Shown: piece after piece, positions 33,677 to 63,060 of the stretch
Layout: every line of letters starts with the position of its first letter
Position numbering within the stretch: position 1 is the first letter of the stretch
Origin: Azovibrio restrictus
Lineage (GTDB): Bacteria; Bacteroidota; Bacteroidia; Chitinophagales; Chitinophagaceae
Direction: 5' to 3'
DNA length: 64,000 bases
Assembly (NCBI GenBank): GCA_029255605.1
Contig: JANLJF010000039.1
Coordinates: 6,399-70,398 of the forward strand
Made by a program: the position numbers and the translations under genes
The notes under the pieces: generated by a model
Database searches by the model: none
Told to the model about the DNA's origin: nothing
The model's input: only the letters and a program-made list of their open reading frames with translations

Positions 33677-33750
33677 TCCTCCTTAGCTCAGTTGGTTAGA
33701 GCACCTGACTGTTAATCAGGGGGTCTCAGGTTCAAGTCCTGAAGGGGGAG
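33677..33750 (+). tRNA. tRNA-Asn (anticodon GTT), CCA not encoded
   Basis: Acceptor TCCTCCT/AGGGGGA, D arm GCTC/GAGC, anticodon arm CCTGA-CTGTTAA-TCAGG, T arm TCAGG-TTCAAGT-CCTGA. Confidence 0.97.
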
Positions 33751-33761
33751 CACTGATATAC

Positions 33762-49163: not shown

Positions 49164-52100
49164 CTATTTGAAACTTCTACCGGCAGGAAAGATTTCAGGT
49201 TGTATAATTCTTCGGGATTTGAAATTCTTGGATTGTGATGCTGGCAGTTCACCATCCTTTTCATCAGCTCTCGTTGATGCAGCGACTTGCGTGCTTGTTT
49301 CCTCAATCATGGTCAGGTTCCTTAATAGCCTTGAAAAGTCATAACATTTCTGCACCACCACATGTACAACCCGCCCTTCAATTTGCAACTTGCCTTCAAC
49401 CATCAGTAATCTTGACTGTAATATCTCTTTACGATACTGGTCAAAAAGGTTTTTGAAAACTACCAGATTCATAACCCCCGTTTCATCTTCCAGGGTAATA
49501 AAGCAAATACCGCTCGCGGTACCGGGACGCTGCTTATTTAGAACAAGCCCGGCGACCTTAATAATATCACCGTCCTTATAATTATTAATATCAACCGCGG
49601 AGGCAATCTGTAATGCAGATAGTTTACCCCTCACAAAACTTACCGGATGTGATTTAAGTGATAATCCCATGGTTGCGTAATCATGAGCTACATGTTCGGA
49701 AAGTTGCATTTGAGGGAGTTGCACGGTTGATTCTGTTTCAGAGGCTGAAGTCTGTCCTTTATACATTCCGTTAGGCGTATCATAAAGTGCAGACACCTGC
49801 CATAATGCTTGCCGTCTATCCATTCCCATAGAGTGGAACGCATCTGCATCAGCAAGTTTTTCTAATGCAGCTTGTGATACACCTGCATCTTTCAATGCTT
49901 CAATAGTGGTATAATGCTGCTTACGGCCTGCCATTAAGAATTGTATATCTTCTGATTTCAAACCTTTTACTTGTCTAAATCCTAACCTCATCGCACAATA
50001 TTTACCGGCTTTCTCTTCAAGCGTATTATCCCAATCAGAATAATTTATATCTACTTCGCGAACTTTTACATCATGGTTCCTGGCATCTATAATGATTTGC
50101 GCGGGGTGATAGAAGCCCATAGGCCAGCTATTCAATAACGCACATGCAAACACATCAGGGTAGTGATATTTCAACCAGGCAGAAACATAAGCGAGTAACG
50201 CAAAACTAACGGCATGGCTTTCAGGAAAGCCATAACTACCGAAACCCTCCAACTGTCTGAATACTCTTTTTGCAAAGTCCTCTTTGTAACCCTTCTTAAT
50301 CATGCCCTGTATCAACTTCTTCTCATAATCGCTTACCTGACCTTTAGCTTTGAATGTAGCCATACTACGACGTAACCCATCCGCTTCTGCAGGTGTAAAT
50401 CCTGCGGCCACTATCGCTATTTCCATTGCCTGTTCCTGAAATAGGGGCACCCCCATCGTCCTGCTCAATATCGCACGCAATTCTTCAGAAGGATATTCTT
50501 CTTTTTCCTTTCCTTCCCTCCGTCTTAAATATGGGTGAACCATATCGCCTTGTATGGGCCCTGGCCTTACAATAGCCACTTCTATAACTAAGTCATAAAA
50601 ACACTTCGGCTTCAGCCTTGGCAACATGGACATCTGTGCACGGCTCTCAATCTGGAATACACCTATGGTATCGGCACGGCTCGTCATCTCATAAACATCG
50701 GCATCATCTTGCGGTATGTTAGCGAGCGTAAGGTTTCGACCATAATGAAGTTTTACTAAATCAAACGCTTTACGGATACAAGTAAGCATGCCTAATGCCA
50801 ATACGTCTACTTTAAGAAAACCAAGCGCTTCAATGTCATCCTTGTTCCACTCTATACACGTTCTATCCTTCATCCTTGCATTCATTACAGGGCATAGGTT
50901 AGAAAGTTTGTCTTGTGTTATCACAAAACCACCTGTATGCTGGCCGAGTTGCCTTGGGAAACTGATGAATTGTTGTGTTAGTTGTAATACTTTCAAAAGG
51001 TGCGGGTCATTGGCATTAAATCCGTCAGTGGTTATTTTACCGCCTCTGAACCAGTCATCGGTGAACTCCCAGGACGCTTTTGCCAACCTGTCGGTCGTAT
51101 CAACAGACAGGCCCATCGCTTTCGCAATATCCCGAACGGCTCCACGATAATGGAGTTGCGTAACAGTGGCTACAATAGCCGCCCTGTCACGACCATATTT
51201 TTCATACACATACTGTATCACTTCTTCCCGTCTTTCATGCTCAAAGTCCACATCTATATCAGGTGGTTCGTCCCTCGCATCAGACATAAAACGGGCAAAT
51301 AGCAATTTAAATTTGGAAGGGTCAACTGAAGTAATACCAAGGCAATAACATACAGCGGAATTAGCGGCTGAACCTCTACCCTGGCACAGTATGTTCCTGC
51401 TTCTTGCAAAACGTACCAGGTCATGCACTGTCAGGAAATAAGCTGCGTAATTCTTCCGCTCTATGAAATCAAGCTCGTACTCTATGGATTTGACAATGTG
51501 TGCGGGTATATTATTCTTGAACTGCTCGTTGGCGCCTGACCAGGTCAAATGGACTAATTCTTCCTGTGGCGACCTTCCTTCAGTAGTTATCTCTTCGGGA
51601 TAAACGTATTCAAGGCTGTCCAGTGAAAATTGACAGGCACTTGCTATTTCCCGTGTTCTTGAGATAGCATCCGGGTATTGGGCAAAGAGGCGCTGCATCT
51701 CTTTTTCACCTTTGAGATACCTTTCTGCATTCTGGTAAAGTTTATAGCCGGCAGTATGGATGGTACACTTTTCACGTATACAAGTAACGACATCCTGCAA
51801 TTCCCTCCTTTCTGCCGTGTGGTAATGCACATCGTTCATAGCGACCAGTGGCACTTTCATTTGTTCCGCCAGTTTTGCAAGGCGATATAACTTCTTATTG
51901 TCATTGGCATGGTACGAACGTATCGCACCTAAATACAAGTTCCTGCCAAGGGCTATACGGTAATCGCTGAGCGCCTGTTTATAATGCGTTTCGATGTCGT
52001 ATTCCTTATTCAAAGAAGGTGGGGGCACCATGATGAATTTGATACCTTTTGAATACCTGAACACGTCGGCTTTGTATAAATGGCATTTTCCCTTTTCAGC

Positions 52101-52394
52101 ACGCATATTACCTTCGGACAATAAGGCACAGAGTCTTTCGTAGGCCGCTTTATCGGTAGGGTAAGCCAATAGTGGCGGACCATCCAATAGTTCAAGGCGG
52201 CAACCCGGAATGACCCTGATATTTTTACCACGTGCGGCCATATGTGCACGCACGATGCCCGCAAGGGTGTTATGGTCTGTTATGGCAATTTCGGTATAGC
52301 CTAACCGCGCGGCTTCTTCCACCAGCTCTTCGGGATGAGAACCGCCGCGTAAAAAGGAAAAGTTCGTCGTTACTTGTAATTCCGTGTAATTCAT
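49164..52394 (-). CDS. dnaE2: Error-prone DNA polymerase DnaE2 (ImuC)
   Basis: Y.EL.V.TNFSFLRGGSHPEELV, GRGSAANS.VCY.LGIT, PPDIDVDFEHERREEVIQY, QIESRAQMSMLPRL, YGFPESHA, OB fold QRPGTA.G..FITLEDETG. Confidence 0.95.
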   Translation of the reverse strand: MNYTELQVTTNFSFLRGGSHPEELVEEAARLGYTEIAITDHNTLAGIVRAHMAARGKNIRVIPGCRLELLDGPPLLAYPTDKAAYERLCALLSEGNMRAEKGKCHLYKADVFRYSKGIKFIMVPPPSLNKEYDIETHYKQALSDYRIALGRNLYLGAIRSYHANDNKKLYRLAKLAEQMKVPLVAMNDVHYHTAERRELQDVVTCIREKCTIHTAGYKLYQNAERYLKGEKEMQRLFAQYPDAISRTREIASACQFSLDSLEYVYPEEITTEGRSPQEELVHLTWSGANEQFKNNIPAHIVKSIEYELDFIERKNYAAYFLTVHDLVRFARSRNILCQGRGSAANSAVCYCLGITSVDPSKFKLLFARFMSDARDEPPDIDVDFEHERREEVIQYVYEKYGRDRAAIVATVTQLHYRGAVRDIAKAMGLSVDTTDRLAKASWEFTDDWFRGGKITTDGFNANDPHLLKVLQLTQQFISFPRQLGQHTGGFVITQDKLSNLCPVMNARMKDRTCIEWNKDDIEALGFLKVDVLALGMLTCIRKAFDLVKLHYGRNLTLANIPQDDADVYEMTSRADTIGVFQIESRAQMSMLPRLKPKCFYDLVIEVAIVRPGPIQGDMVHPYLRRREGKEKEEYPSEELRAILSRTMGVPLFQEQAMEIAIVAAGFTPAEADGLRRSMATFKAKGQVSDYEKKLIQGMIKKGYKEDFAKRVFRQLEGFGSYGFPESHAVSFALLAYVSAWLKYHYPDVFACALLNSWPMGFYHPAQIIIDARNHDVKVREVDINYSDWDNTLEEKAGKYCAMRLGFRQVKGLKSEDIQFLMAGRKQHYTTIEALKDAGVSQAALEKLADADAFHSMGMDRRQALWQVSALYDTPNGMYKGQTSASETESTVQLPQMQLSEHVAHDYATMGLSLKSHPVSFVRGKLSALQIASAVDINNYKDGDIIKVAGLVLNKQRPGTASGICFITLEDETGVMNLVVFKNLFDQYRKEILQSRLLMVEGKLQIEGRVVHVVVQKCYDFSRLLRNLTMIEETSTQVAASTRADEKDGELPASQSKNFKSRRIIQPEIFPAGRSFK

Positions 52395-52406
52395 GCTTCA
52401 CATGTT

Positions 52407-53909
52407 CTATCCAAAAAATCCGTGGACGTACCATTGCGGTTCACCGCTGTCATAATGGCCTAACCTGAATAACCAATAGCGCGCACCGTTTTCGTCTTCC
52501 ACGCAATAATAGTCCCTGTACATACCGCCTGTGAGCCACCATTCCTGTTCGATTCGTTCAGGGCCGTCCGCTTTAGTTACCTTATGCAACACGCCTTTGT
52601 AGTGGAAGAGCATTGGCGGATAATCCGGTATGGGTACTGTAACCTCGATACGCTCAGGATTATGCAGCAAATGCAGCGGACGCGGCGACTCGTCGCGCCA
52701 CTGTGTTGTAGGCATTTCTTGCACCGAACCCGCAAGTTTCATAGCCCTCTCGGGCCAGTAGTGCTCGGCAGGCAAATAACGGCATATCGCCTGCTTTCCG
52801 ACTTTACCGGCTATCCTGTCTAACAACTCTGCAATAGCGACATCATTTCCCTCCTCTTTCCTGTTCCATATTGCTTCCTGTTCAGGTGATATGCGTTCAG
52901 TCTCTCTGCCTTCTAACACGAACAGTTCAAATCCCAATGCCGGTTCTATAGCAGGTATCTTCAGTTCGAATAGTTTGAAAAGATGAGCCGCATTACGGGA
53001 CGGCCTGTTGGTACCTATCTCGATTTTCTGCACATTTCCGTCTATCCTGTAACAACAGAGCAAACAACTGCGTAAACCAATCTCGTCTTTAGCCATTCTT
53101 GCACACAATCCTTCGAGTAGCTGTTTTAATGCTATCTCAATACCTGTCGCCGTACGGATAGGCTCTAAGGATGGCAATCGTTCCTGATATGGGACAACCG
53201 GATTTACCGGTTCAATTGTTTCTATCTCTTGCCCAAGTGCCTGGTCTATACGTTGTAATAAAGACTGCCCAAATCGTCTGCGTAGTGCACCGCGAGGCAT
53301 CCGAATGAAATCTTTTACCTGGTACAATCCCAGTTTTTCCAATCGCTGCGCAATGGATGTTTCAATGCGCAATGCTGAAGGTGGTAAGTGCAATAGTGCA
53401 CTCAACTGCTCACCAGCCTTTATTATTGAATATGCAGGGCGGCCATAACGTGCAACTGCCCATGCGGTACCTATAGTATCAGCCATACAAATACGCACAT
53501 CGTACCCTAACTTTCTGAATTTCTCAAGTATATCCGCAACGTATCGTTCTTCTCCGCCCCACAGATGTGCACAACCGCTTGCGTTCAGTATGATTCCATC
53601 CGGCAGGTCTATAGCTACGACGGGAGTATACCTGATGCACCATTCGCCAATGGCCGTCAATAGCTTTTCATTTAACCCCGGTGTGTCGTCAATGACCTGC
53701 AGTGAAGGAAGGATGGCCCTGCTGTCTGCTACCGCCATTCCAATGTTGACACCTTTCCCTCGGGCCACGTCGTTTGCCCCTTTTACTATGGCCCTGCCTC
53801 TTTCTGTTGAAGATAATACGAACGGCACATTGCGCAGATACGGTTGTCTTCTCATTAACCAATCCGTGCAAAGACTGCTGAACCATATGGATACATATCG
53901 CCTTTCCAT
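52407..53909 (-). CDS. imuB: Y-family polymerase-like protein ImuB
   Basis: G...GM.VAD.RA..P.L, RYTP.VA.D.PDG..L..SGCAHLWGGE, C-terminal GPERIE.EWW....RDYY..ED..G.RYWLFR. Confidence 0.92.
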   Translation of the reverse strand: MERRYVSIWFSSLCTDWLMRRQPYLRNVPFVLSSTERGRAIVKGANDVARGKGVNIGMAVADSRAILPSLQVIDDTPGLNEKLLTAIGEWCIRYTPVVAIDLPDGIILNASGCAHLWGGEERYVADILEKFRKLGYDVRICMADTIGTAWAVARYGRPAYSIIKAGEQLSALLHLPPSALRIETSIAQRLEKLGLYQVKDFIRMPRGALRRRFGQSLLQRIDQALGQEIETIEPVNPVVPYQERLPSLEPIRTATGIEIALKQLLEGLCARMAKDEIGLRSCLLCCYRIDGNVQKIEIGTNRPSRNAAHLFKLFELKIPAIEPALGFELFVLEGRETERISPEQEAIWNRKEEGNDVAIAELLDRIAGKVGKQAICRYLPAEHYWPERAMKLAGSVQEMPTTQWRDESPRPLHLLHNPERIEVTVPIPDYPPMLFHYKGVLHKVTKADGPERIEQEWWLTGGMYRDYYCVEDENGARYWLFRLGHYDSGEPQWYVHGFFG

Positions 53910-54643
53910 TACGCTGTCCTGCTTTTGTGTATCGCAGGTATAGAAACTGCCTTATCTGCTGTTACACTGAATGTATTTGTGTTCCACTCCACCTGCCAGG
54001 CACCGGGTATGCCATTGCGCACCTTAAGTAGTTGCACATGCCATTTAGGGAAACCGACACCCGGCAGGTCATCTATTGGTGTGCTCGGTAAAATCTTTAT
54101 ACTCCAGCGAGCGACGCTTGCGACCGCATTTTTATTCTTCGGTTTGAAACGGTGTATAAATCCGGTTACGTTACTATGCTCAACGGCTAACTGCAACCTG
54201 CGTGATTCTGTGAAACCCAGTTCCTGTATCTCACCCACTACGGCAACCAATGCTTCGCATTTCAATGCCTCTTCAATTACCCACAGTGCGTCTTTAGGTT
54301 TAATGAGGTCTATAAAGACCAGGTTCGCAGGGTCTATACCATATGATTTCAATGCCGGCGGGTAAATAGTGCGATTGGTACTTACCCATAGGCAAATGCC
54401 TTTTCTTCTTGTCAGTTTACTGAGCAGGCTTGCTATAAAGCAATTGGTAGCAACTGCATGTTCGGAGCTATCGCTTACAAACTCATGGATGGTGCCTGTT
54501 GGAAATTTTCTATTTGGAAAATTGTTTTCAATGCTGCTTAAATCGGTCTGCTGCTGCCTTTGCTCAACTATGCCCTTAAAACCCTGCAGGGTTAAAACTT
54601 CTTTTCGAAGCCTTGCTACAATATCTGATTTCTGTGCCTGCAC
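53909..54643 (-). CDS. imuA: RecA-like protein ImuA
   Basis: FP.G.IHEF, YPPAL..YGI.P....F, WVIEEALKC, SRRLQLAVE, W...L.KVRNG.PG.W. Confidence 0.9.
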   Translation of the reverse strand: MQAQKSDIVARLRKEVLTLQGFKGIVEQRQQQTDLSSIENNFPNRKFPTGTIHEFVSDSSEHAVATNCFIASLLSKLTRRKGICLWVSTNRTIYPPALKSYGIDPANLVFIDLIKPKDALWVIEEALKCEALVAVVGEIQELGFTESRRLQLAVEHSNVTGFIHRFKPKNKNAVASVARWSIKILPSTPIDDLPGVGFPKWHVQLLKVRNGIPGAWQVEWNTNTFSVTADKAVSIPAIHKSRTA

Positions 54644-54656
54644 AAAATGGGCTTAT

Positions 54657-54670
54657 TGTACAATTGTACA
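54657..54670. promoter_or_regulatory. Perfect 14-bp palindrome just upstream of imuA
   Basis: TGTACAATTGTACA, adjacent to a minus-strand TAAATTTG -7 element (54671-54678). Confidence 0.45.
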
Positions 54671-54696
54671 CAAATTTATGCCAAATACGGCTTAAA

Positions 54697-54716
54697 TATT
54701 GAACATATGTTTAATA
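54697..54716. promoter_or_regulatory. Near-perfect 20-bp palindrome with GAAC-N4-GTTY core (SOS-box-like) upstream of imuA
   Basis: TATTGAACATATGTTTAATA, in the expected -33 region of the imuA promoter. Confidence 0.5.
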
Positions 54717-54780
54717 AATGTGATAAAATTCGCTACTGGCAACATGTATATTAATTTAATTAATTGAAATATCTTCTATG

Positions 54781-55347
54781 CTACCGCAATGTTCGTAGCG
54801 TAACAGAAATACGAATTTCCTTTACCGGGGATATGCTATGTTCCCAGTCTGTTCGTGCTTCATCTTTTATGACATAAACAGACCGGCGCTTTACAGTAAA
54901 GGAGATGATGGATTTTCTGTTCTGCTTCGCTTTATCATATGGGCGAAACCTGAAAGTACAGTCGGACAATAATGAAACACCGATTATCATATCAAAAGGT
55001 GGTGCGTCACGGTGCCAATTGATAACTGAACCAACGGGATACTCGGTCACAAGCACCTCTGCGAGGCTTTCTGCCGGAATTGTCAAGAATGCAGCCACTT
55101 TTTCAATAAGCGGTATTAAACCTTTAGGTATTGCTTTCCCCTTCGTTACAGTTCTCTTATCAAAGTTGTAATCATATCCATAGCTCTCCACCTTACGCTT
55201 GGCCTCGAATCCCTGGAATATGAGCGGATGCAGGTCTAACTTACCAATTACAGCTAACAATCCAGTTTCCTCCTGTTCGGTAATGAAATCAGGGAAGTAA
55301 CCGAAACCATATGGCAGAACAGGTATAGAATCAAAAAGTGTCTGCAT
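54781..55347 (-). CDS. alkB: AlkB-like 2OG-Fe(II) dioxygenase
   Basis: R.V..YG.DY.F, LVTEY..G..I.WH.D, R..WEHSI, RIS.TLR (HxD...H...R); start at MQTLFD. Confidence 0.85.
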   Translation of the reverse strand: MQTLFDSIPVLPYGFGYFPDFITEQEETGLLAVIGKLDLHPLIFQGFEAKRKVESYGYDYNFDKRTVTKGKAIPKGLIPLIEKVAAFLTIPAESLAEVLVTEYPVGSVINWHRDAPPFDMIIGVSLLSDCTFRFRPYDKAKQNRKSIISFTVKRRSVYVIKDEARTDWEHSISPVKEIRISVTLRTLR

Positions 55348-55421
55348 AACACGATACCTGGTAAAATTTAATGCCAAACCTATTATATGTTGGGCATGTA
55401 ATTACCGAGGATATAGTTTGC

Positions 55422-55874
55422 TCATGGTTTGTAATTTAAAACCTCGGCAATAGGAATAAAAATGACCAACACGTGGCCTGTTTTTGTTTCAGCCAAACGG
55501 CTCCTGTAAGCATAGTATTCTAAAAGACTGTGCATTTTGCGAGCCGGTATAGATGCGCTTATCATACTTTTTAACTTTCGCGAGGCTCTGAATGGGCTTT
55601 TTAGTTTATGCTCAAACAAAAAGGAGTTATCTGCGTCGATATCCACTATTACCTCACCATTCCTCGTTGCCAATACAGGAACCGCCAGGGAGATATTTTC
55701 AAGAGCGGCTTTAAGGCGACTGATAAATTCAGGGTCTGTTTTGGGCTTATTAACATCGAGACAATCGGCAGGATAACCATTCAGTTTATAAAATTCTTCC
55801 TGTTTCTCAGCCTTTGGTTTATCTATCAGGTAATACAAAAGGTTTTCGATGTCTTCGGTTTCGTAATCATACAT
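55422..55874 (-). CDS. Hypothetical protein
   Basis: 150-aa ORF co-oriented with neighbours. Confidence 0.6.
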   Translation of the reverse strand: MYDYETEDIENLLYYLIDKPKAEKQEEFYKLNGYPADCLDVNKPKTDPEFISRLKAALENISLAVPVLATRNGEVIVDIDADNSFLFEHKLKSPFRASRKLKSMISASIPARKMHSLLEYYAYRSRLAETKTGHVLVIFIPIAEVLNYKP

Positions 55875-55949: not shown

Positions 55950-56894
55950 TTAAGCTGCTGCTTTCTCGAGTATTTCGGAATAAATATGCCTGCATATGGC
56001 TTCAGCAAAAGGTGGCAATACCATCATACCTAATTTCTTTGTAAGCTCTGCATCGGAAATAAGTCCATTAAAATCATATTCATCCATATGAGCCAATACT
56101 TTCCTGTCTTGAATCGTCAACTTTTGCCAAAGACCGTTCCTGAATATCTCAACGTCGCTGCTTGTCATGGTAGGAAATAACTTAGTCCTGCCATCGATGA
56201 TTCTTACTCTATCTCCCGATTGCTTTCTAAAGCCTTTATGCCTTATCAGTTCGGCACCAATTGTAGCGAAAGCAGATTGTTTGTTCATATCAACAGGATT
56301 TGGCACTGGATAAGATGGCTTTACAACTAAGTCTTTTCTGACAAGCATTATCATCGCGCGATTGCGCGACTGAAAACATCCGAAGTTCTCAGCGTTTAAA
56401 ACCTTTACGTCCCAATGATAATTGCCTAAAAGTTCAATCTCATTGACGAAGTAATTAAAGAACGGGCGCATGGGTTTGGATAGCAAAGTCGGTACCTGCT
56501 CAATAAGTACAACTTTAGGCTGTATCTCTTTGACCAACCTTAGCATCTCTATCATCAGGAAGTTCAAGGCATGGAACACACTTCTGAAATTCGCATTCAG
56601 CAAAGTGATACCAAAACAGGGAGGCCCTCCCACTAACAGGTCAAGCTCACCTTTTGCGATGTCTATACCGATTGCATTCAAAGCGTTTCTGATGTCTTTA
56701 TCGAATATAAGGTCCCTGACATCTTTGACGAGGAATATATCTTTACCCTTGTGTTCCCATATAACAGGGGCTACAGTGCTTGCCAGTTCTTCAATATCAG
56801 AAGAGAACGGTGCATTGAAACCGGCACGCCTCGCGCCGGTTTCAAGACCTTGTAAATTGGAGAATAATCCGAATGCTATTTTTTTACGTGACAT
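55950..56894 (-). CDS. Divergent DNA (cytosine-5)-methyltransferase-like protein
   Basis: GGPPC, LIEQVP.L, LNAENFG..Q.RNR, LT..DR..L, LGMMVLPP; motif I is FSNLQG instead of FxGxGG; start at MSRKKIAF. Confidence 0.8.
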   Translation of the reverse strand: MSRKKIAFGLFSNLQGLETGARRAGFNAPFSSDIEELASTVAPVIWEHKGKDIFLVKDVRDLIFDKDIRNALNAIGIDIAKGELDLLVGGPPCFGITLLNANFRSVFHALNFLMIEMLRLVKEIQPKVVLIEQVPTLLSKPMRPFFNYFVNEIELLGNYHWDVKVLNAENFGCFQSRNRAMIMLVRKDLVVKPSYPVPNPVDMNKQSAFATIGAELIRHKGFRKQSGDRVRIIDGRTKLFPTMTSSDVEIFRNGLWQKLTIQDRKVLAHMDEYDFNGLISDAELTKKLGMMVLPPFAEAICRHIYSEILEKAAA

Positions 56895-56919
56895 ACTTTT
56901 GTTTTTAAGGATTAAGAGA

Positions 56920-57948
56920 TTAGGCCGCCAGATTATCTGAATTATAAATGATGACCTGTATCTGGCTGTTATCAGGACCTTTGAATACGTGGAACTGGCT
57001 TCCATCAACATTGTGTTGTATGCCACCACCATATTTAATGTTACCCGTTCCTTTACCGAATATCTCAGCGCTGATGCTGCCGTTGTCTGCCTGTAACTTC
57101 ATCTCTTTGCCTGATGCGAACCTGATGACCAATTCCTGAATACTTTCACAAGGCACTGTTTGTTTCTGGCCGGCAAAATCCCAGTCATCTGTTTCGACCT
57201 TCGCCGGTTTTATTCCATCGGCTGCAATGACATCTGTTTGACAACTCTCACATTCAATGCCTGCCGTGTCCGTACTGATGGCTATTTCCTCCGTTGTATC
57301 ACTGCCATCGACTTCAGATTCAACATGTGAAGGTGCTGGCGTAGTATCAGCCTTAGACTCGGTTGTCAACTCCGATGTATTCACTTGTATATCCGGCTTA
57401 CGAACCTTAGGCAGTGATTCCAATGCTTCTGTAAAGGTCATGTCGCCGTCATCAATCTTACTTAACAGGTCAGGGTTGTACTTGTATATTCTTTCCAACT
57501 GGTTTATCATGCCATAACTGTATCCCACCAGGAAACCTATTTTTCTATTTATCTCTTCGCCAGGCACTTCCTCTTTCCAAATTTTGCCGGCCTCTGTTTC
57601 ATTCATATACTTTCTGAGTGATGCAATAAGTTCTGCCTGTTGCAAGCGTGAAAGCCTGCGCCGCATGTTTTTAAAACTTATCACCTGTATTGCCGCATCG
57701 CTATCAATGTCAAGCATTGTCACTTCCATTTCTTTCAATCCCATCCTCATTGCTGTTTCAACGGCTTCGAAATTGTGAAGCACGTCTTTGTTTGTAGTGC
57801 ATATAACGTCTCCTGGCGGCAGGCTGAATTTTATATATTGGCCTACCTCAAAGTCAGTTATTTTTGTCTTCCCATATTTTGCCAGAAATGGGTTCATCGT
57901 CAAATCTGTAGTCTTTACTGTAGTCTTATTTGCTGTTATTTTCTTCAT
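56920..57948 (-). CDS. ParB-like protein with degenerate CTPase motif, HTH and acidic linker
   Basis: ETAMRMGLKEMEV..LD...A..I....N.RR.LS..QQA.LI, HTH RKIGFLVGYSYGMINQL, LL.KID.G.MT.TEA; GxxRxxA box replaced by HNFEAVETA. Confidence 0.65.
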   Translation of the reverse strand: MKKITANKTTVKTTDLTMNPFLAKYGKTKITDFEVGQYIKFSLPPGDVICTTNKDVLHNFEAVETAMRMGLKEMEVTMLDIDSDAAIQVISFKNMRRRLSRLQQAELIASLRKYMNETEAGKIWKEEVPGEEINRKIGFLVGYSYGMINQLERIYKYNPDLLSKIDDGDMTFTEALESLPKVRKPDIQVNTSELTTESKADTTPAPSHVESEVDGSDTTEEIAISTDTAGIECESCQTDVIAADGIKPAKVETDDWDFAGQKQTVPCESIQELVIRFASGKEMKLQADNGSISAEIFGKGTGNIKYGGGIQHNVDGSQFHVFKGPDNSQIQVIIYNSDNLAA

Positions 57949-58024
57949 ATTATTATTTGTTTAACTTCTAGATATTGTGAATTGATTTTGAAAATTTAAT
58001 AACGTCGTGAAGTGTGAGGGCCCG

Positions 58025-58168
58025 TCACATTTCAAGCCAGTCAAAATGATTGATAATGGTAGGTTGCATTCCCATCATCCCGTCTTTCAAAGAACTCTGA
58101 TTTAATCGCAGATACTCTTTACGTGCAGCAGCAATTAAAATCTGAAACGAAGATATTGGCAGGGTCAT
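58025..58168 (-). CDS. Possible small ORF (47 aa) upstream of the ParB-like gene
   Basis: MTLPISSFQILIAAARKEYLRLNQSSLKDGMMGMQPTIINHFDWLEM; below the ORF-track cutoff. Confidence 0.25.
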   Translation of the reverse strand: MTLPISSFQILIAAARKEYLRLNQSSLKDGMMGMQPTIINHFDWLEM

Positions 58169-58271
58169 ATTTATGACGTAGATTAGTCGCCCAAATGGAA
58201 AATGTAAATTGTCGATAGACGCCTAATCCCTTTACAGTAAGGGATTTCGGCGAACAAAGAATAATTTTCAA

Positions 58272-59111
58272 ATGAACCGTTCTGAACGATTGATATTAGA
58301 AGAACTGGCAGAATACAAATGGCCGGGAATATACTGTTGCTCAAAGTGCGGCAATGAAAGTTATATGCCCGGCAAGAAAGCATATTCAAGACGATGCAAG
58401 CAGTGCAAGTACGAAGAGAGCCTCATGAAATTTACAGCTTTTGAAGGGTTAAGATTCCCTCTGGAAAAAGCTTACCATATCCTTCAACGAATCGTTAAGA
58501 CTGCATATGTAAATCCAGAAGCAAATATTGTCCCTGTAGGAAAGCTGACCGATAGGTTGGCAACGGAAAGAAAGTATATCTCTATCATTGATTACGTCAA
58601 TAGATGTAAAGTGAAAGAAATACCTCCCGGTGTTATAGATGAACGTATTCTCAGTATAATGGATAAACAACGGCCTTCGTTAAGGAAATTGTCAATAGAA
58701 TTCGGGGTCGAGGAGAATACCATGGCAAAGTTCATCAGTAAGCTAAATGCAAGGATAACGCTTGACGAAGTATTATTAAGAGATAGCCCATATGAAAGGA
58801 TAATAGACTTTGTCAATGTCCGCTATGATAAAGAATTGGACTTTTATTTACAAATGATGATGCACCCCCTGGTTGGTAAGTGGGACCTTGGTTGGCAACA
58901 AAGAGGTAAACATCACTTTGCTCTGACATATGAAAACATAGAATCATGGTCAGTATACAGGATTGAGTTTAGTGGAAAAGAAGATGATTATCTCATCCCA
59001 CCTTTCAAAAGGTTGGAAAGAATAGAATATGCCTCTACGATATGGAAAATCTTATACTGCAGTGATATTGACAGGAAGAAGTACCTTAATCAACTCAGTC
59101 GTTCCGAATAA
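58272..59111 (+). CDS. IS1595-type Zn-ribbon + HTH protein lacking a DDE domain
   Basis: LAEYKWP..Y.C.KCG....PGK..YSRRC..CKYEES...T.FE.LRFPL.KAY, HTH SLRKLS.EFGV.ENT..KF..KL; no DDE triad recognised. Confidence 0.65.
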   Translation: MNRSERLILEELAEYKWPGIYCCSKCGNESYMPGKKAYSRRCKQCKYEESLMKFTAFEGLRFPLEKAYHILQRIVKTAYVNPEANIVPVGKLTDRLATERKYISIIDYVNRCKVKEIPPGVIDERILSIMDKQRPSLRKLSIEFGVEENTMAKFISKLNARITLDEVLLRDSPYERIIDFVNVRYDKELDFYLQMMMHPLVGKWDLGWQQRGKHHFALTYENIESWSVYRIEFSGKEDDYLIPPFKRLERIEYASTIWKILYCSDIDRKKYLNQLSRSE

Positions 59112-59141: not shown

Positions 59142-59384
59142 TTACGGATTGAATATGTCATTTGCCAACTCATAAATATCAATATTGATACTTTCGCAGA
59201 CCTCAAAACAAGCATCCATAATCTTGTTTCTTGTCGCCGCTTCTTCAGGCGTATAAGTATCTTGTCTTGATTCGCAGTTTATATAATCTTCAAAAGGCGT
59301 GTCAGGATGAAAATTCAGGTCTTCAACCAATAATTGCCTGAAAAAGGTTTTTACATCTTCAATACCATTAATCTGAGTTATCAT
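59142..59384 (-). CDS. Small hypothetical protein, 5 bp downstream of the integrase
   Basis: 80 aa, I..I.DVK.FF..L...LNFHPD.PFEDY.N. Confidence 0.7.
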   Translation of the reverse strand: MITQINGIEDVKTFFRQLLVEDLNFHPDTPFEDYINCESRQDTYTPEEAATRNKIMDACFEVCESINIDIYELANDIFNP

Positions 59385-59389
59385 AGTTG

Positions 59390-60619
59390 TTACTTTAAAA
59401 GTGTTTCTGAAAGTTGTTTGATATGATTGTCTGGAATGCTCTTTAAGTAGTGCATAGTAGTCTTACCGTCGGCATGCCCTAAAGCATCTGTTATAAAGGA
59501 GGTAGGTGTACCGTTCAATTTGAGATTCGTTCCAAATGAATGCCTTGCCAGGTTTAAAACCAATGGAACTGTAAAACCGAGATGTTCTCCGATTCCTCTC
59601 AATTTCTCATTGACAATTTTTTGTATCATTTTCCTCCGCTTCTCTCTTTCAATAGCTGTAGGATAGTTGTTCAAAATAGGAAAGATGTAGTTATCAGCTG
59701 ACATATCTGTATTACCCCAAACTTTTATGATGCGCTTCATCTCAGGATGCAGGAAGGCTTTAATTTCTTTGTTGGCTACTGAGTTTGTCCGTTTTGTTTT
59801 TTCGCGAACAAACATAATCGTATCGCCTTTAATGTTGCCGTACTTCATATAGACCATATCCTTAAAATTGATACCGTTGCACAGATAACAGAACAACCAA
59901 TAGTCCTTTGCCCTTCGTGCTCTTAATGTTGCAGGTTGATAGTGAAACAACTCTTGAACCTGTTCGGGATATAATACGTTTTTTGATTTTGCCGATGTAC
60001 CGATTGTATAGTCATCGAAAGGATAGAAACGTTTGGCTAAGTACCCATCCTTAATTGCCTTATTGAATATGATGCGCAGGTTACGCAAATATATCTGCGC
60101 TGTGGTTGCAGAATTACCTTCTTTCTCCATCCAGGAGCGATACCCTTTTAAGAAAGCTACATTGATGTCTTCAAAGTACAGAGGTGTTCTGTATTTCTTT
60201 AATGAACGCAAAGCATGGTTCATATTTTGTGCAGACTTAAACCGCTCCTCTTTTTTAAGGTTAAGCATGTACTCTTCAAATAGAAAGGTTACGTCTGTTT
60301 TGTCCGAACGATGTAAATCAGTTTCTGACTTGAACAACCTTTGAAAACCTTCACGGGTTGGATTAGGTAGTACTTCTAAAATACCTTCGGCCTTCGCTAT
60401 ATATTTACCGATTTCTGAGCGCAGTTCCTTGACATCTTTACTACCGCTTTTGCCGCTCATGGCTTTACCAAAATCTTCCTTGTTTGCGTATAGTTTCAAT
60501 CCGATTTTGAACTGTAAACCTGCTATAGATACACTGAGCTGAATCGGACAGAGGTCAGTCCCTTTCTTCGGATAGCGTTTGTCCCAGTGTACGTGGACAG
60601 AATAGTTTCTTTGCTTCAT
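59390..60619 (-). CDS. Tyrosine recombinase / integrase (Bacteroidetes Arm-DNA-binding + SAM-like + catalytic domains)
   Basis: N-terminal arm-binding domain (D.R..KK...PI.L.V), YLRNLR..FN.AIK, CNGINF.D, R.KT, ARHSFGT, LGH.D..TT..Y. Confidence 0.93.
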   Translation of the reverse strand: MKQRNYSVHVHWDKRYPKKGTDLCPIQLSVSIAGLQFKIGLKLYANKEDFGKAMSGKSGSKDVKELRSEIGKYIAKAEGILEVLPNPTREGFQRLFKSETDLHRSDKTDVTFLFEEYMLNLKKEERFKSAQNMNHALRSLKKYRTPLYFEDINVAFLKGYRSWMEKEGNSATTAQIYLRNLRIIFNKAIKDGYLAKRFYPFDDYTIGTSAKSKNVLYPEQVQELFHYQPATLRARRAKDYWLFCYLCNGINFKDMVYMKYGNIKGDTIMFVREKTKRTNSVANKEIKAFLHPEMKRIIKVWGNTDMSADNYIFPILNNYPTAIEREKRRKMIQKIVNEKLRGIGEHLGFTVPLVLNLARHSFGTNLKLNGTPTSFITDALGHADGKTTMHYLKSIPDNHIKQLSETLLK

Positions 60620-60715
60620 GTAACCGAAGATGCAAGAAACCGGCATCCATAGGTCAGCCTACCTCGCTAAATTTTCGCAAATCCAAGAATTGTAATCTTA
60701 TAATGTGGAAGTATT

Positions 60716-61504
60716 TTAAGCTTCTTTTCTGCTGAAAGTGATAATCAATTGCTGATGATTTTCGTTGTATGCAAGGAAATTAACAACATAATTCCTCCTA
60801 ACAGCGAATTCAATAGTCGCGGCATACTCATGTTTTGTCCATTCGTTATCACCGTCTGCTCGTGTATCATCACTAAAATTATAACCCTCATCTAATGCAA
60901 TTACCGTCTTTTCCGGTTCAATGTAGTCACCTAAAATCTCATATATTTTTTGAGCTGCAGCGAACGTATCAGTGTCAATATGTATGAAAGAAACTGACTT
61001 TTGCTTTAGTATATCATCAACAAAGACATCTAAGGTTTCGTCAATATCACCAATTACCAAAGATGTATTAGCTAATGGTATAAAAGGCCATCGCTTAATA
61101 CTTTTATAACCAAAAACGTTTTTAGGAAAGCCAGGTCTCCAGTTTTCCGGAAGTCCTGTCAATGAATCAAATCCGAAAACCTCACGGTTGTACGCCAATG
61201 CTGCAATAAAATTTATTGTAGTTCCCGTACAAAACCCAAATTCAAGAAATACACCATCACCAAGCGACATAGCATGTTCAACACCATACTTTAAACACGC
61301 CGCATCACTATCCATAACTTTAGCCTGTTGAACAGACAAGACTTCATTTACAAATTCTATTGATGACTTATTATTACGATAGTGCCTATTTTTTGTATTG
61401 ATATGTAGTATATTATTACCTCGCTCCTCAATAGCACTGTGGGGAGGCATTATAATATAGTTTTCTAAATTAATATCAGCACTTTCTCGATTCAGTATTT
61501 CCAT
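60716..61504 (-). CDS. Class I SAM-dependent methyltransferase (TylF/MycF-like)
   Basis: FLEFGF.TG.TI, VFGFDS..GLPE.W, L..G.I.ETL..F, FIHID.D, I.LDE..N. Confidence 0.8.
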   Translation of the reverse strand: MEILNRESADINLENYIIMPPHSAIEERGNNILHINTKNRHYRNNKSSIEFVNEVLSVQQAKVMDSDAACLKYGVEHAMSLGDGVFLEFGFCTGTTINFIAALAYNREVFGFDSLTGLPENWRPGFPKNVFGYKSIKRWPFIPLANTSLVIGDIDETLDVFVDDILKQKSVSFIHIDTDTFAAAQKIYEILGDYIEPEKTVIALDEGYNFSDDTRADGDNEWTKHEYAATIEFAVRRNYVVNFLAYNENHQQLIITFSRKEA

Positions 61505-61514
61505 TTTAATTACA

Positions 61515-62732
61515 TTATTTAAACTTCATTTTGAACAATGATGGGATGGTGACAATGTCCAAGTCTATAGGACTTCCGGTCAAAGAGTTATAGCAATTTT
61601 CTACAAATCTGTCTACAAAATCGTGATACTCTTCATCCTTATTGTAGTTTGACACAGAAACTATCTTCCGAGCTACGATTTCCCATTCTGTATGGAGTAC
61701 TGTGGAAGGGAATTTCTTAGAAAGAATCAAACAAACTATCAATACAAAGACAATATCTGAAGTGTGTGAAAGTGGTTGAAAAATGTGCATGTAGGTTCTA
61801 ATTCCGTTTTTCTCTTGTGATTTCTCATGAATAAGGTAGAACAAGTCGAAGATTTCCTTAATAGTTCTTATAATTAAATTCATCCCGCTTTCATCATTTA
61901 ACAAAAACGACATTTTATAAATATTGTCTTTAGTAACCTCAGGCACTTTATCACTCACATAATGACCTAAAAATAAGCTTTCTGCATAGTTGGCAGGTGC
62001 AGGGCCAACATCACGTTGAGATTCGATTAAGGCCGTACTTGCTTGACTCATGTACTGACACACATCTGTAGCAAATACCCCATAATTTTTCATGCTAAGC
62101 GGTTCTCCTAAAACATTGTCCTGTTCAAATATGCGTAAGTAGTTTTTTAACGACCTTGCTCCCCATCCAATAGTCCACAACAAATCTTTCTGTTTTGAAC
62201 CAGTATTGAAATGCTTTCCTAAAAGTAGATATGTAATTAACCTTGCATGGTGTGCATCAATTGTATTGGCATGAACTGCCAACTTATTCTTATATGTATC
62301 GTGAAATTTAGCATTTATATTTTCAGTCGCTAATACTACCTGGTCCTCTATCTCCTGTTTAATTAACACTTTGGGTATTACAACAACAATTGATAAAAGT
62401 ATGGTGATTCCAGCGAGAATAATTCCGAATACTAAATTGGTCTTTTCTGTGATACTCTTATCAATTTCAATGGTATGACTAATTGATTTATTAATAATGC
62501 TGTCCTTTACATCTTGCATAACACCTGCTATGTAAGCTGTATCCTTAATATTGATTTTATCGGCTTTGAGTGTTATAACTACAGGACGATTATACTGATG
62601 GGTATCCCATATTGAAAGAGCAACTAATGCCAAAAGGCATATCAAGATAACCACGTATAGAATGCGATACCACCAATCGAAAGTCTTGATATTGCGTACA
62701 CTGGATTCAGATTTATTGCTATTTCTGTTCAT
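61515..62732 (-). CDS. Hypothetical membrane protein (two TM helices)
   Basis: 405 aa, TM segments near residues 20-42 and 98-120; 10 bp from the methyltransferase start, probably co-transcribed. Confidence 0.65.
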   Translation of the reverse strand: MNRNSNKSESSVRNIKTFDWWYRILYVVILICLLALVALSIWDTHQYNRPVVITLKADKINIKDTAYIAGVMQDVKDSIINKSISHTIEIDKSITEKTNLVFGIILAGITILLSIVVVIPKVLIKQEIEDQVVLATENINAKFHDTYKNKLAVHANTIDAHHARLITYLLLGKHFNTGSKQKDLLWTIGWGARSLKNYLRIFEQDNVLGEPLSMKNYGVFATDVCQYMSQASTALIESQRDVGPAPANYAESLFLGHYVSDKVPEVTKDNIYKMSFLLNDESGMNLIIRTIKEIFDLFYLIHEKSQEKNGIRTYMHIFQPLSHTSDIVFVLIVCLILSKKFPSTVLHTEWEIVARKIVSVSNYNKDEEYHDFVDRFVENCYNSLTGSPIDLDIVTIPSLFKMKFK

Positions 62733-62928
62733 AATTTGCAGCCGATTATACTACAAGTTATTATATGTTATAGGTTAAACAAACTGTAAGCATAAATTTT
62801 ACAGTGCCATAAGGAAGACATATTGGGATGTAATAGTTATTGCAAATCTTACTGCAAGTTGCGAAAAGACAATCCTTGAATCGGCATGAAAACCCTACCA
62901 ATGGCTCACTTCAGCAATACAATGATTG

Positions 62929-62963
62929 AAACAGTCCCCTGATTACTGATGGGGGGACTGTTT
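62929..62963. terminator. Hairpin, probable terminator
   Basis: aaacagtcccc...ggggactgttt. Confidence 0.55.
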
Positions 62964-63060
62964 ATTTAGAAACTAACACAGCGTTATTACGATACTTTAC
63001 AAATCGGTTTAATATTTATATTTTAGTACTACTATTCCTTGTCGAAGGATATTAGATACT

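What the first reader, a model, noticed from the sequence alone, without database searches (positions are those of the whole stretch)
55950..57948. ParB-like + C5-methyltransferase pair in which both cofactor-binding motifs are remodelled
Seen: two intact, co-oriented ORFs 25 bp apart. The ParB-like protein keeps the fold-typical pattern and HTH, but the CTP-binding DGxxRxxA box reads HNFEAVETA. The MTase keeps catalytic PC, the Glu of motif VI (EQV instead of ENV) and R-x-R, but SAM-binding motif I reads FSNLQG instead of FxGxGG and motif X reads GMMV instead of GNAV. Established: ParB-MTase gene pairs occur in mobile elements and DNA-modification loci. Inference: coordinated loss or change of both nucleotide-binding sites without frameshifts suggests a repurposed complex, such as a non-SAM cofactor, a different base modification, covalent DNA trapping through the retained Cys, or a catalytically silent DNA-binding or anti-restriction factor.
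Basis: partly seen in the sequence, partly recalled or inferred. Interest (0 to 1): 0.62.

Follow-up and report, generated by a model that had tools for sequence, protein, structure and literature searches.

The report
ParB-fold protein plus atypical cytosine-methylase pair
A mobile island in a Flavipsychrobacter genome carries a conserved two-gene unit, a ParB-shaped DNA-binding protein that lacks the usual nucleotide-binding arginines and a cytosine-methylase-like enzyme that keeps its catalytic residues but has a rebuilt cofactor pocket; both are under strong selection, so this is a working but undescribed variant, not a decaying copy.

Summary
Two intact genes lie 25 bp apart on the minus strand (56920-57948 and 55950-56894).

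**ParB-like protein.** It matches no Pfam model. Its AlphaFold model matches ParB, Noc, KorB and Spo0J N-domain plus HTH structures. None of 58 relatives has the Box II GxxR motif.

**Methylase-like protein.** It has a full C5-methyltransferase fold. Its best solved match is CmoX, the Cx-SAM carboxymethyltransferase. It keeps the catalytic Cys, the motif VI Glu and QxRxR. In 19 homologs at 47-80% identity, FSN[LVW][RQL]G, PPCF, EQV and G[NML]MV are conserved.

**Selection.** dN/dS against the closest copy is 0.08 for the methylase-like gene and 0.17 for the ParB-like gene. Decay is refuted.

**"Coordinated" remodelling is not supported.**
- The ParB-like family lacks GxxR even where its partner has a canonical FSGVGG.
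- EQV also occurs in otherwise canonical methylases.

**Context.** The pair belongs to a conserved island backbone: integrase, small protein, zinc-ribbon protein, pair, 150-aa protein. The adjacent AlkB-like and ImuA-ImuB-DnaE2 genes are separate cargo.

**New observation.** Both proteins often end in ssrA-like -LAA or -KAA tails.

**Best reading (0.42).** An active, short-lived DNA cytosine-C5 transferase guided by a ParB-fold adaptor. The donor is probably SAM; a non-SAM donor or a different chemistry is not excluded. This is a new variant of a known kind.

The parts
56920..57948 (-). ParB-fold/HTH protein (342 aa). Residues 1-180 form a ParB N-domain plus HTH. Residues 181-250 are a disordered linker. 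Residues 260-335 form an all-beta C-terminal domain. The protein ends in -NLAA.
   Evidence: ORF. AF2 model. Foldseek against PDB and BFVD. No Pfam hit. No GxxR in 58 relatives. dN/dS 0.17.
55950..56894 (-). C5-methyltransferase-fold enzyme (314 aa). It has variant motif I (FSNLQG), motif IV (PPCF), motif VI (EQV) and motif X (GMMV). Cys93, Glu132 and Arg177/Arg179 are retained. The protein ends in -KAAA.
   Evidence: dN/dS 0.084.
55422..55874 (-). Conserved third gene of the operon (150 aa). It matches no known family.
   Evidence: Homologs lie directly downstream of the pair in L021 (64% identity), L019 (33%) and L027 (25%, E 1e-5). No Pfam, NCBIfam, PADLOC or PHROG hit.
57949..58271 (.). 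323-bp divergent intergenic region between the pair's operon and the zinc-ribbon gene. It presumably holds promoters and operators. It contains short inverted repeats, for example AATCCCTT..AAGGGATT at about 58228-58250.
   Evidence: Function is inferred only.
58272..59111 (+). Divergently transcribed zinc-ribbon protein (279 aa), conserved next to the pair.
   Evidence: Weak Zn_ribbon_IS1595 hit. Homologs sit at the same place in L001 (37%), L021 (78%), L019 (45%), L009 and L002.
59142..59384 (-). Conserved 80-aa protein beside the integrase, a candidate excision or directionality factor.
   Evidence: Homologs in L021, L019, L009 and L001. Function is inferred from position.
59390..60646 (-). 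Tyrosine integrase of the island backbone (Phage_int_SAM_5 plus Phage_integrase).
   Evidence: Conserved next to the module in L001, L009, L019, L021 and L027.

Best explanation
The two genes form an operon-encoded DNA-modifying unit. It belongs to the backbone of a family of tyrosine-integrase islands in Chitinophagaceae-type Bacteroidota.

The upstream protein has the ParB fold plus an HTH, but has lost the Box II GxxR phosphate motif. It probably acts as a plain DNA-binding adaptor or regulator, not as a CTP-gated clamp.

The downstream protein is a catalytically competent C5-methyltransferase-fold enzyme. It flips a cytosine, attacks C6 with Cys93, and transfers a group to C5 from an adenosyl-sulfonium donor. 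The adenosine-side contacts are kept (Phe11, Asp33, mostly Asp58). The methionine and transferable-group side of the pocket is rebuilt with bulkier or polar residues: Asn13, Gln/Arg15, Phe94, Gln133, Met/Asn290 and Met291. The most likely donor is still SAM, held in an altered way.

Both proteins often end in ssrA-like -LAA or -KAA tails. The activity is therefore probably a short pulse, for example when the island is induced or enters a new cell, serving to mark or protect DNA.

Shown: fold, conserved residues, purifying selection, synteny. Inferred: catalysis, donor, role of the ParB-fold partner, degron function, biological purpose.
For: - Fold and best matches: 8yf3 CmoX 6e-17, HhaI, HaeIII; ParB, Noc, KorB.
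- Family-wide conservation of both the catalytic and the variant residues.
- 37 of the 60 invariant positions fall in motif windows that cover 22% of the length (Fisher 6e-14). This is what an active site under selection looks like.
- dN/dS is 0.084 and 0.17.
- The alignment to HhaI fixes Q82->F94 and N120->Q133. N304->M290 follows from the motif X alignment, in which CmoX Arg350 (= HhaI N304) aligns with Met290.
- Q82 and N304 border the transferable group (PMC3526304). The residue at the N304 position selects Cx-SAM in CmoX (PMC12783734).
- The operon is tight: a 25-bp gap here, overlapping genes in L027 and L006. The pair occurs in all nine loci examined for this clade.
- ParB-domain proteins are commonly fused to, or encoded next to, DNA methylases and CmoX (PMC12704722, PMC12783734).
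- -AA tails occur in 37/108 ParB-like and 9/23 methylase-like proteins, against 0.75% of long ORFs in this genome. The organism's own tmRNA tag reads GESNYAMAA.
Against: - Canonical C5 methylases keep the first motif I Gly. Asn there, plus Met in place of the small motif X residue, may block the SAM methionine moiety.
- No docking or coordinates were available.
- The motif III Asp is not invariant: it is Asn or Cys in 3 of 19 members.
- In the wider ParB-linked clade other hallmark motifs drift: the PC dipeptide becomes SSC in L027 and SVC in L006. This is unusual for bona fide methyl transferases.
- NCBIfam dcm scores below its cut-off.
- There are no biochemical or methylome data.
- The ssrA-like tail is absent from some members.
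Confidence: 0.42

Rival explanations
1. Same fold, different chemistry. The rebuilt pocket binds a donor other than SAM (a SAM derivative or another adenosyl compound) and installs a non-methyl group on C5. Alternatively, the enzyme works without a donor and uses the Cys-C6 adduct for C-to-U deamination or for covalent DNA trapping.
For: - Six pocket positions are replaced and invariant in the family.
- Two of them are HhaI Q82 and N304, which control the size of the transferable group (PMC3526304).
- The N304 position decides Cx-SAM use in CmoX, the best solved match (PMC12783734).
- Residue 15 in motif I and residue 290 in motif X co-vary: R with N, Q with M, L with L.
- M.SssI is reported to deaminate its target cytosine to uracil when SAM is missing (abstract of PMC3804486, listed).
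Against: - The CmoX signatures are absent: the protein has GPPC rather than SPPC, and Met or Asn rather than Arg.
- No cofactor-synthesis gene such as cmoA is conserved in the module.
- The relative in L006 keeps a canonical glycine loop, so the ancestral state was probably SAM-binding.
- Adenosine-contact residues are retained, which argues against a donor-free enzyme.
Confidence: 0.25
2. Non-catalytic DNA-binding complex. The methylase-like protein serves only as a sequence-specific, base-flipping DNA binder. Together with the ParB-fold HTH protein it regulates island genes, excision, replication or partition. A variant is a labile-regulator/toxic-partner addiction pair.
For: - Hallmark motifs drift in different ways across the ParB-linked clade: motif I here, PC to SSC or SVC elsewhere.
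- The module is a backbone element beside integrase and regulators, not beside a restriction gene.
- The ParB-fold protein lacks GxxR.
- The upstream HTH protein carries an ssrA-like tail, as labile antitoxins and regulators do. In L001 and L009 only the upstream proteins carry the tail.
Against: - The catalytic Cys, Glu and Arg-x-Arg and the adenosine contacts are invariant in the family, and conservation is concentrated in the catalytic motifs. Pseudoenzymes usually lose these.
- In the window both proteins carry the tail.
- No ParA partner or parS-like repeat array was seen.
Confidence: 0.2
3. Simple decay of an ordinary ParB/methylase pair.
For: Weak or absent hits to the curated models: ParBc gives none, and dcm scores below its cut-off.
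Against: - Both ORFs are intact.
- The variant motifs are shared by 19 homologs down to 47% identity.
- dN/dS is 0.08 and 0.17 at dS 0.5-0.8.
- The AF2 models are confident.
Confidence: 0.02

Closest known systems
Prokaryotic DNA cytosine-5 methyltransferases (PF00145; M.HhaI, M.HaeIII)
   Same: Whole fold (Foldseek TM 0.71-0.75). Order of motifs I-X. Catalytic Cys in PPC, Glu of motif VI, QxRxR of motif VIII, a T-x-T element in the target-recognition region, and the motif II acid.
   Different: Motif I is FSNLQG instead of FxGxGG. PCF replaces PCQ. EQV replaces ENV. G-M/N-M-V replaces G-N-A/S-V. A family-specific RSVF(H/N) stretch lies in the catalytic loop. The Pfam match covers only the N-terminal half, and the score is below the NCBIfam dcm cut-off.
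CmoX, phage DNA cytosine C5-carboxymethyltransferase (PDB 8YF3; PMC12783734)
   Same: Best solved match by both sequence and fold. Motif X departs from GNAV at the same position. ParB-domain genes are frequent neighbours of CmoX.
   Different: CmoX has a canonical glycine-rich motif I, SPPC, and Arg at the N304 position. It co-occurs with CmoA and an amide ligase. None of these is present here.
ParB-CTPase fold proteins (ParB, Noc, KorB; orphan ParB fusions to methylases, PMC12704722)
   Same: N-domain plus HTH fold. A Box III-like KNMRR stretch. Location on a mobile element. Association with a DNA-modifying enzyme.
   Different: No Pfam ParBc match. No Box II GxxR in any of 58 relatives. No ParA or ParA-binding motif. 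An all-beta C-terminal domain replaces the usual helical dimerisation domain. The protein is a separate gene rather than a fusion.
ssrA/ClpX C-terminal degrons (-LAA)
   Same: The C-termini -NLAA and -KAAA resemble the organism's own tmRNA tag end, -AMAA.
   Different: The tails are genetically encoded, not added by tmRNA. Recognition by a protease is untested.

Membership tests
C5 DNA methyltransferase (PF00145) | Profile match above the curated threshold | tested here: met
   PF00145 scores 93.3 bits against a cut-off of 22, covering profile positions 6-175 only. TIGR00675 scores 79.3, below its cut-off of 100.65.
C5 DNA methyltransferase (PF00145) | Two-domain C5-MTase fold | tested here: met
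   AF2 pLDDT 91, pTM 0.90. Foldseek matches 8yf3, 3ubt and HhaI at E 1e-14 to 6e-17 with TM about 0.7.
C5 DNA methyltransferase (PF00145) | Motif IV Pro-Cys nucleophile | tested here: met
   GGPPC93 is invariant in 19 homologs. The following Gln (HhaI Q82) is Phe.
C5 DNA methyltransferase (PF00145) | Motif VI ENV and motif VIII QxRxR | tested here: inconclusive
   Glu132, Arg177 and Arg179 are invariant. Asn is replaced by Gln, giving EQV. EQV also occurs in otherwise canonical enzymes.
C5 DNA methyltransferase (PF00145) | Motif I FxGxGG SAM loop | tested here: not met
   FSN[LVW][RQL]G in all 19 family members. It is canonical in the outgroups P0024-P0028 and L010-L018. P0029 reads FSCGGG, with the first Gly replaced by Cys.
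C5 DNA methyltransferase (PF00145) | Motif X GN(A/S)V | tested here: not met
   GMMV here. The rest of the family has GNMV or GLMV. Met291 is invariant where a small residue is usual.
C5 DNA methyltransferase (PF00145) | SAM binding and methyl transfer to cytosine C5 | not testable with these tools
   No coordinates, docking or biochemistry were available.
CmoX carboxymethyltransferase | SPPC motif plus Arg at the HhaI N304 position (PMC12783734) | tested here: not met
   The protein has GPPC, and Met290 (Asn or Leu in relatives).
CmoX carboxymethyltransferase | Linked CmoA (Cx-SAM synthase) or amide ligase | tested here: not met
   Neither is among the neighbours in the window or in the related loci examined.
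ParB/Srx (ParB-CTPase fold, PF02195) | Profile match | tested here: not met
   No Pfam hit at E<=10 for this protein, and none at E<=0.01 for 58 relatives. A profile search of the PDB found only an HTH-like repeat.
ParB/Srx (ParB-CTPase fold, PF02195) | N-domain fold plus HTH | tested here: met
   Foldseek probability 1.0 to 5k5d, 7bm8, 6sdk, 7nfu, 1vz0 and 8qa8, and to viral ParB models.
ParB/Srx (ParB-CTPase fold, PF02195) | Box II P motif GxxR. Its Arg is required for NTP binding (PMC12704722). | tested here: not met
   HNFE here. No Gly..Arg at this place in any of 58 relatives.
ParB/Srx (ParB-CTPase fold, PF02195) | Box III (ENLQR-type) motif | tested here: inconclusive
   KNMRRRLS (93-100) occupies the equivalent helix-loop-helix position and is invariant in close homologs. 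The equivalence was judged by eye, not from a structural alignment.
ParB/Srx (ParB-CTPase fold, PF02195) | ParA partner / partition context | tested here: not met
   No ParA-type ATPase is among the neighbouring genes.

The most novel reading that the evidence does not exclude
A C5-methyltransferase-fold family has rebuilt the methionine and transferable-group side of its cofactor pocket in order to use a donor other than SAM, or no donor at all. It thereby writes an undescribed cytosine modification, or performs programmed deamination or covalent capture, on DNA. A nucleotide-independent ParB-fold adaptor delivers it to DNA, and built-in ssrA-like degrons on both proteins limit its activity in time.
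Probability: 0.22. Interest if true: 0.85.

Novelty: new variant of a known kind. Interest (0 to 1): 0.58.

Why it matters
The 2025 discovery of CmoX showed that one substitution in the C5-methylase cofactor pocket marks a new natural DNA modification. This family changes six pocket positions and keeps them invariant under strong selection, while preserving the covalent-catalysis residues. That makes it a concrete, cheap-to-test candidate for another altered-donor enzyme. At the least, it would show how far the SAM loop of a C5 methylase can diverge and still work.

It also defines a ParB-fold family invisible to Pfam that lacks the GxxR motif. This bears on what ParB-fold partners do for DNA-modifying enzymes when they cannot act as CTP switches.

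The shared ssrA-like tails suggest timed proteolysis of a mobile-element DNA-modifying unit.

Tried and rejected
**Searches that gave nothing**
- Sequence searches for ParBc: Pfam at E<=10, 58 relatives scanned, and a PDB profile search. Only fold comparison worked.
- PADLOC and PHROGs gave only generic methylase hits for the enzyme, and nothing for the ParB-like, 150-aa, zinc-ribbon or 80-aa proteins.
- Repeat search of the 323-bp intergenic region gave only short repeats of chance size and no parS-like array.
- ARAGORN failed to call the tmRNA. Rfam located it and I read the tag by eye.
- A literature search for degenerate motif I C5 methylases gave nothing relevant.
- The scan's earlier notes hold no look-alike of either protein.

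**Ideas rejected**
- AlkB-like oxygenase as a TET-like partner of the methylase. It belongs with imuA-imuB-dnaE2 in a higher-GC cargo block (49164-55377). That block is missing at the same place in the sister island L021 and in the other related loci examined.
- CmoX membership. The signatures are absent.
- Decay. Conservation and dN/dS contradict it.

- dS was saturated for all but the closest pair.
- A3 was too diverse for the search for related loci.
- The profile search with distant ParB-like members returned only two usable proteins.
I therefore have no wider census of the ParB-like family, no genome-wide cmoA check and no read-level evidence.
- Model coordinates are not exposed, so SAM docking could not be done.
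Full report
**1. What is in the sequence**

The minus strand carries an ORF at 56920-57948 (342 aa) and an ORF at 55950-57032. Nineteen homologs of the second ORF all begin at the position of its internal MSRKK.

- FSNLQG at residues 11-16
- GGPPCF at 89-94
- IEQV at 131-134
- QSRNR at 175-179
- LGMMV at 288-292

**2. The methylase-like protein**

Database matches:
- Pfam PF00145 is matched well above threshold (93 bits against 22), but only over the N-terminal half of the model.
- The NCBIfam dcm model scores below its cut-off.
- PADLOC and PHROGs see generic cytosine methylases.

Structure. The AlphaFold model built on the homolog alignment is confident (pLDDT 91, pTM 0.90) and has the complete two-domain C5-methylase fold. 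The best solved match by both Foldseek (6e-17) and phmmer is 8YF3. HaeIII, HhaI and the DNMT1 and MET1 catalytic domains follow.

8YF3 is CmoX, the phage DNA cytosine C5-carboxymethyltransferase. In CmoX the motif X Asn (HhaI N304) is replaced by Arg350, which binds the carboxymethyl group of Cx-SAM (PMC12783734).

Equivalences with HhaI. The profile alignment to HhaI fixes Q82 = Phe94, E119-N120-V121 = Glu132-Gln133-Val134, and Q161/R163/R165 = Gln175/Arg177/Arg179. In HhaI, Q82 and N304 lie next to the transferable group, and changing them alters which group can be transferred (PMC3526304).

**3. The variant motifs are a conserved family trait, not decay**

A word-indexed search of 5.8 billion proteins returned only 23 close relatives. 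In the 19 full-length ones (47-80% identity) the following are invariant:
- Ser12, Asn13 and Gly16 of motif I
- Asp33 of motif II
- Gly90-Pro-Pro-Cys-Phe94 and Thr97
- Arg104-Ser-Val-Phe107 in the catalytic loop
- Glu132-Gln-Val134
- Gln175, Arg177 and Arg179
- Gly289, Met291, Val292 and Pro294

Position 15 is Arg, Gln or Leu. Position 290 is Asn, Met or Leu. The two co-vary loosely: R with N, Q with M, L with L.

Thirty-seven of the 60 invariant positions fall in motif windows that make up 22% of the protein (Fisher 6e-14). The sequences are related, so the p-value is optimistic.

Against the nearest copy for which DNA was fetched (L021, a MAG contig):

| Gene | dN | dS | dN/dS |
|---|---|---|---|
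| Methylase-like | 0.042 | 0.50 | 0.084 |
| ParB-like | 0.135 | 0.78 | 0.17 |

.

**4.

- EQV is also found in Lentisphaerae, Chloroflexi and Firmicutes enzymes that have canonical FSGAGG, PPCQ.FS and ANSVPP (L011-L018).
- GMMV is limited to the nearest subclade. Most of the family has GNMV.
- The family-specific changes are those in motif I, Phe after the catalytic Cys, the RSVF loop, and Met291 where canonical enzymes have Ala or Ser.
- The nearest outgroup (L010) has canonical FTGIGG.

Two deeper relatives that also follow a ParB-like gene show a mosaic pattern:

| Locus | Organism | Motif I | Motif IV | Motif VI | Motif X |
|---|---|---|---|---|---|
| L027 | Polluticoccus soli (29% identity) | YSGLRC | TSSC | ENV | GNAL |
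| L006 | a genome of the same family as the window's | FSGVGG (canonical) | GSVC | EQV | GNMV |

The wider ParB-linked clade thus keeps the Cys, the Glu and the Arg-x-Arg, but lets different hallmark positions drift. This fits an enzyme whose constraints differ from ordinary methyl transfer. It also keeps the non-catalytic reading alive.

**5. The ParB-like protein**

By sequence it matches nothing:
- no Pfam hit at E<=10
- none for 58 relatives
- only an HTH-like repeat in a PDB profile search

An exhaustive profile search of 1.84 billion cluster representatives found 103 relatives.

The AlphaFold model (pLDDT 83.6) shows three parts:
- an alpha/beta N-domain plus helical bundle, residues 1-180
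- a disordered linker, residues 181-250
- an all-beta C-terminal domain, residues 260-335

Foldseek matches residues 1-180 at probability 1.0 to pNOB8 ParB-N (1.4e-7), Caulobacter, Bacillus and Myxococcus ParB, Noc, KorB and Spo0J. It also matches phage ParB models. The fold claim is confirmed.

Box II. At the strand-to-helix junction where ParB has Box II GxxR, this protein reads H-N-F-E. None of the 58 aligned relatives has Gly..Arg there. The Box II Arg is required for NTP binding in every ParB-fold binder tested (PMC12704722).

Box III. A Box III-like stretch, KNMRRRLS, is invariant in close homologs. Some phosphate or DNA contact by that patch cannot be excluded.

The GxxR loss is older and wider than the motif I change in the partner:
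- It is present where the partner has a canonical glycine loop (L006).
- It is present where the gene immediately downstream is not a methylase (L028; the contig ends soon after).

The 'coordinated remodelling' inference is therefore not supported.

**6. Genomic context**

Host and island:
- The window is 100% identical over this gene to a Flavipsychrobacter sp. MAG (L007).
- tRNA-Asn lies at 33677-33751.
- GC drops from about 34 kb onward.
- A second copy of the tRNA 3' part lies at window-equivalent position about 66955 on the same contig.
- The island is therefore about 33 kb, as earlier notes of this scan stated.

The same gene order recurs: integrase, 80-100-aa protein, divergent zinc-ribbon protein, in some loci a 135-153-aa protein, ParB-like, methylase-like, then in several loci a roughly 150-aa protein. 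It is seen in the following loci:
- F. stenotrophus (L001/L008)
- a Bacteroidetes MAG (L009)
- three metagenome contigs (L002, L019, L021)
- a JGI contig
- P. soli (L027)

The pair's identities fall together across loci (ParB-like / methylase-like): 79/92, 53/80, 43/57, 33/54, 34/49 and 24/29%. This indicates co-inheritance, with the ParB-like gene evolving faster.

The family is rare:
- 2 of 401 sampled Bacteroidota genomes
- 3 of 185,579 species genomes by pattern scan

Separate cargo. The AlkB-like oxygenase (54781-55377) together with imuA, imuB and dnaE2 (49164-54643) forms a higher-GC block. It is inserted between the 150-aa gene and an XRE-type HTH gene. In the sister island L021 those two genes are adjacent. 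The oxygenase is therefore not a partner of the methylase-like gene.

**7. An additional feature: -AA tails**

- The ParB-like protein ends in -NLAA and the methylase-like protein in -KAAA.
- 37 of 108 ParB-like representatives and 9 of 23 methylase-family members end in -AA.
- The comparison figures are 0 of 8 canonical outgroup methylases and 16 of 2131 (0.75%) long ORFs of this genome.
- Within the islands the tail is confined to the operon's 153-aa, ParB-like and methylase-like proteins.
- The genome's tmRNA encodes a tag I read as GESNYAMAA.

C-terminal LAA-type ends are the classic ClpX recognition signal (established knowledge). That these tails act as degrons is my inference.

**8. Interpretation**

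The concentration of invariance on catalytic and cofactor motifs, the low dN/dS and the retained adenosine contacts favour an active enzyme.

The replaced residues cluster on the methionine and transferable-group side of the pocket and are bulkier or polar. Either SAM is held differently, or another ligand is used. No cofactor-synthesis gene travels with the module, so SAM is the parsimonious donor.

My estimates:

| Reading | Probability |
|---|---|
| Active C5 transferase, donor probably SAM, guided by a nucleotide-independent ParB-fold adaptor and limited by proteolysis | 0.42 |
| Different donor or different chemistry | 0.25 |
| Non-catalytic regulatory, partition or addiction role | 0.20 |
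| Decay | about 0.02 |

The remainder is unassigned.

**9. Relation to what is known**

ParB-domain proteins fused to or next to DNA methylases are well documented on phages and plasmids (PMC12704722). They are frequent beside CmoX (PMC12783734), with unknown function. Earlier notes of this scan record other Bacteroidota islands with a ParB-like gene preceding a C5 methylase (not tested here).

What is new:
- a Pfam-invisible ParB-fold family without GxxR
- a C5-methylase subfamily with an invariant non-glycine motif I and further pocket substitutions
- the shared ssrA-like tails

I class this as a new variant of a known kind.

**10. Limits**

- There was no access to model coordinates, so no docking.
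- No biochemical or methylome data exist for these proteins.
This prevented a wider census, a genome-wide cmoA check and any read-level analysis.

Noticed in passing
window 56920-56934 and 55950-55964 (C-termini); L001, L002, L009, L019, L021: Genetically encoded ssrA-like C-terminal tails (-LAA, -KAA, -IAA, -MAA) occur on the 153-aa, ParB-like and methylase-like proteins of the operon. They are found in 37/108 and 9/23 family members, against 0.75% of long ORFs in this genome. The genome's own tmRNA tag reads GESNYAMAA (L022, about 1594-1623).
   Followed up: partly
window 49164-55377: The AlkB-like 2OG-Fe(II) oxygenase together with imuA, imuB and dnaE2 forms a higher-GC (0.45-0.48) cargo block. 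It is inserted into the island backbone between the 150-aa gene and an XRE HTH gene. The block is absent at that place in the sister island L021.
   Followed up: partly
L027 8902-9849 (Polluticoccus soli) and L006 1501-2454: Deeper ParB-linked methylase-like relatives lack the Pro-Cys dipeptide (TSSC, GSVC) while keeping the Cys, the motif VI Glu and QxRxR. One has a canonical motif I and the other reads YSGLRC. Hallmark motifs drift in a mosaic way across the clade.
   Followed up: partly
L011-L018 (Lentisphaerae, Chloroflexi, Firmicutes contigs): These are roughly 380-480-aa ORFs encoding otherwise canonical C5 methylases that carry EQV instead of ENV in motif VI. The Asn of ENV is therefore not universal.
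   Followed up: no
window 33677-33751 and contig position equivalent to window ~66955: A copy of the tRNA-Asn 3' part of at least 40 nt bounds a roughly 33-kb island. The integrase next to the pair (59390-60646) lies about 6 kb inside the far end, with three or more unannotated genes (60716-63999) beyond it.
   Followed up: partly
window 58272-59111 (+): A 279-aa protein with an N-terminal CxxC...CxxC zinc ribbon (weak IS1595 Zn-ribbon hit) is always divergent from the pair's operon. It is probably the module's regulator. It matches no family.
   Followed up: no
P0025, P0028, P0029 (alignment): The nearest non-family hits include SPPC enzymes with GRAV (the CmoX-type Arg signature). One has GMSV and a Cys at the first motif I Gly. 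The N304 and first-Gly positions therefore vary naturally among uncharacterised relatives.
   Followed up: no
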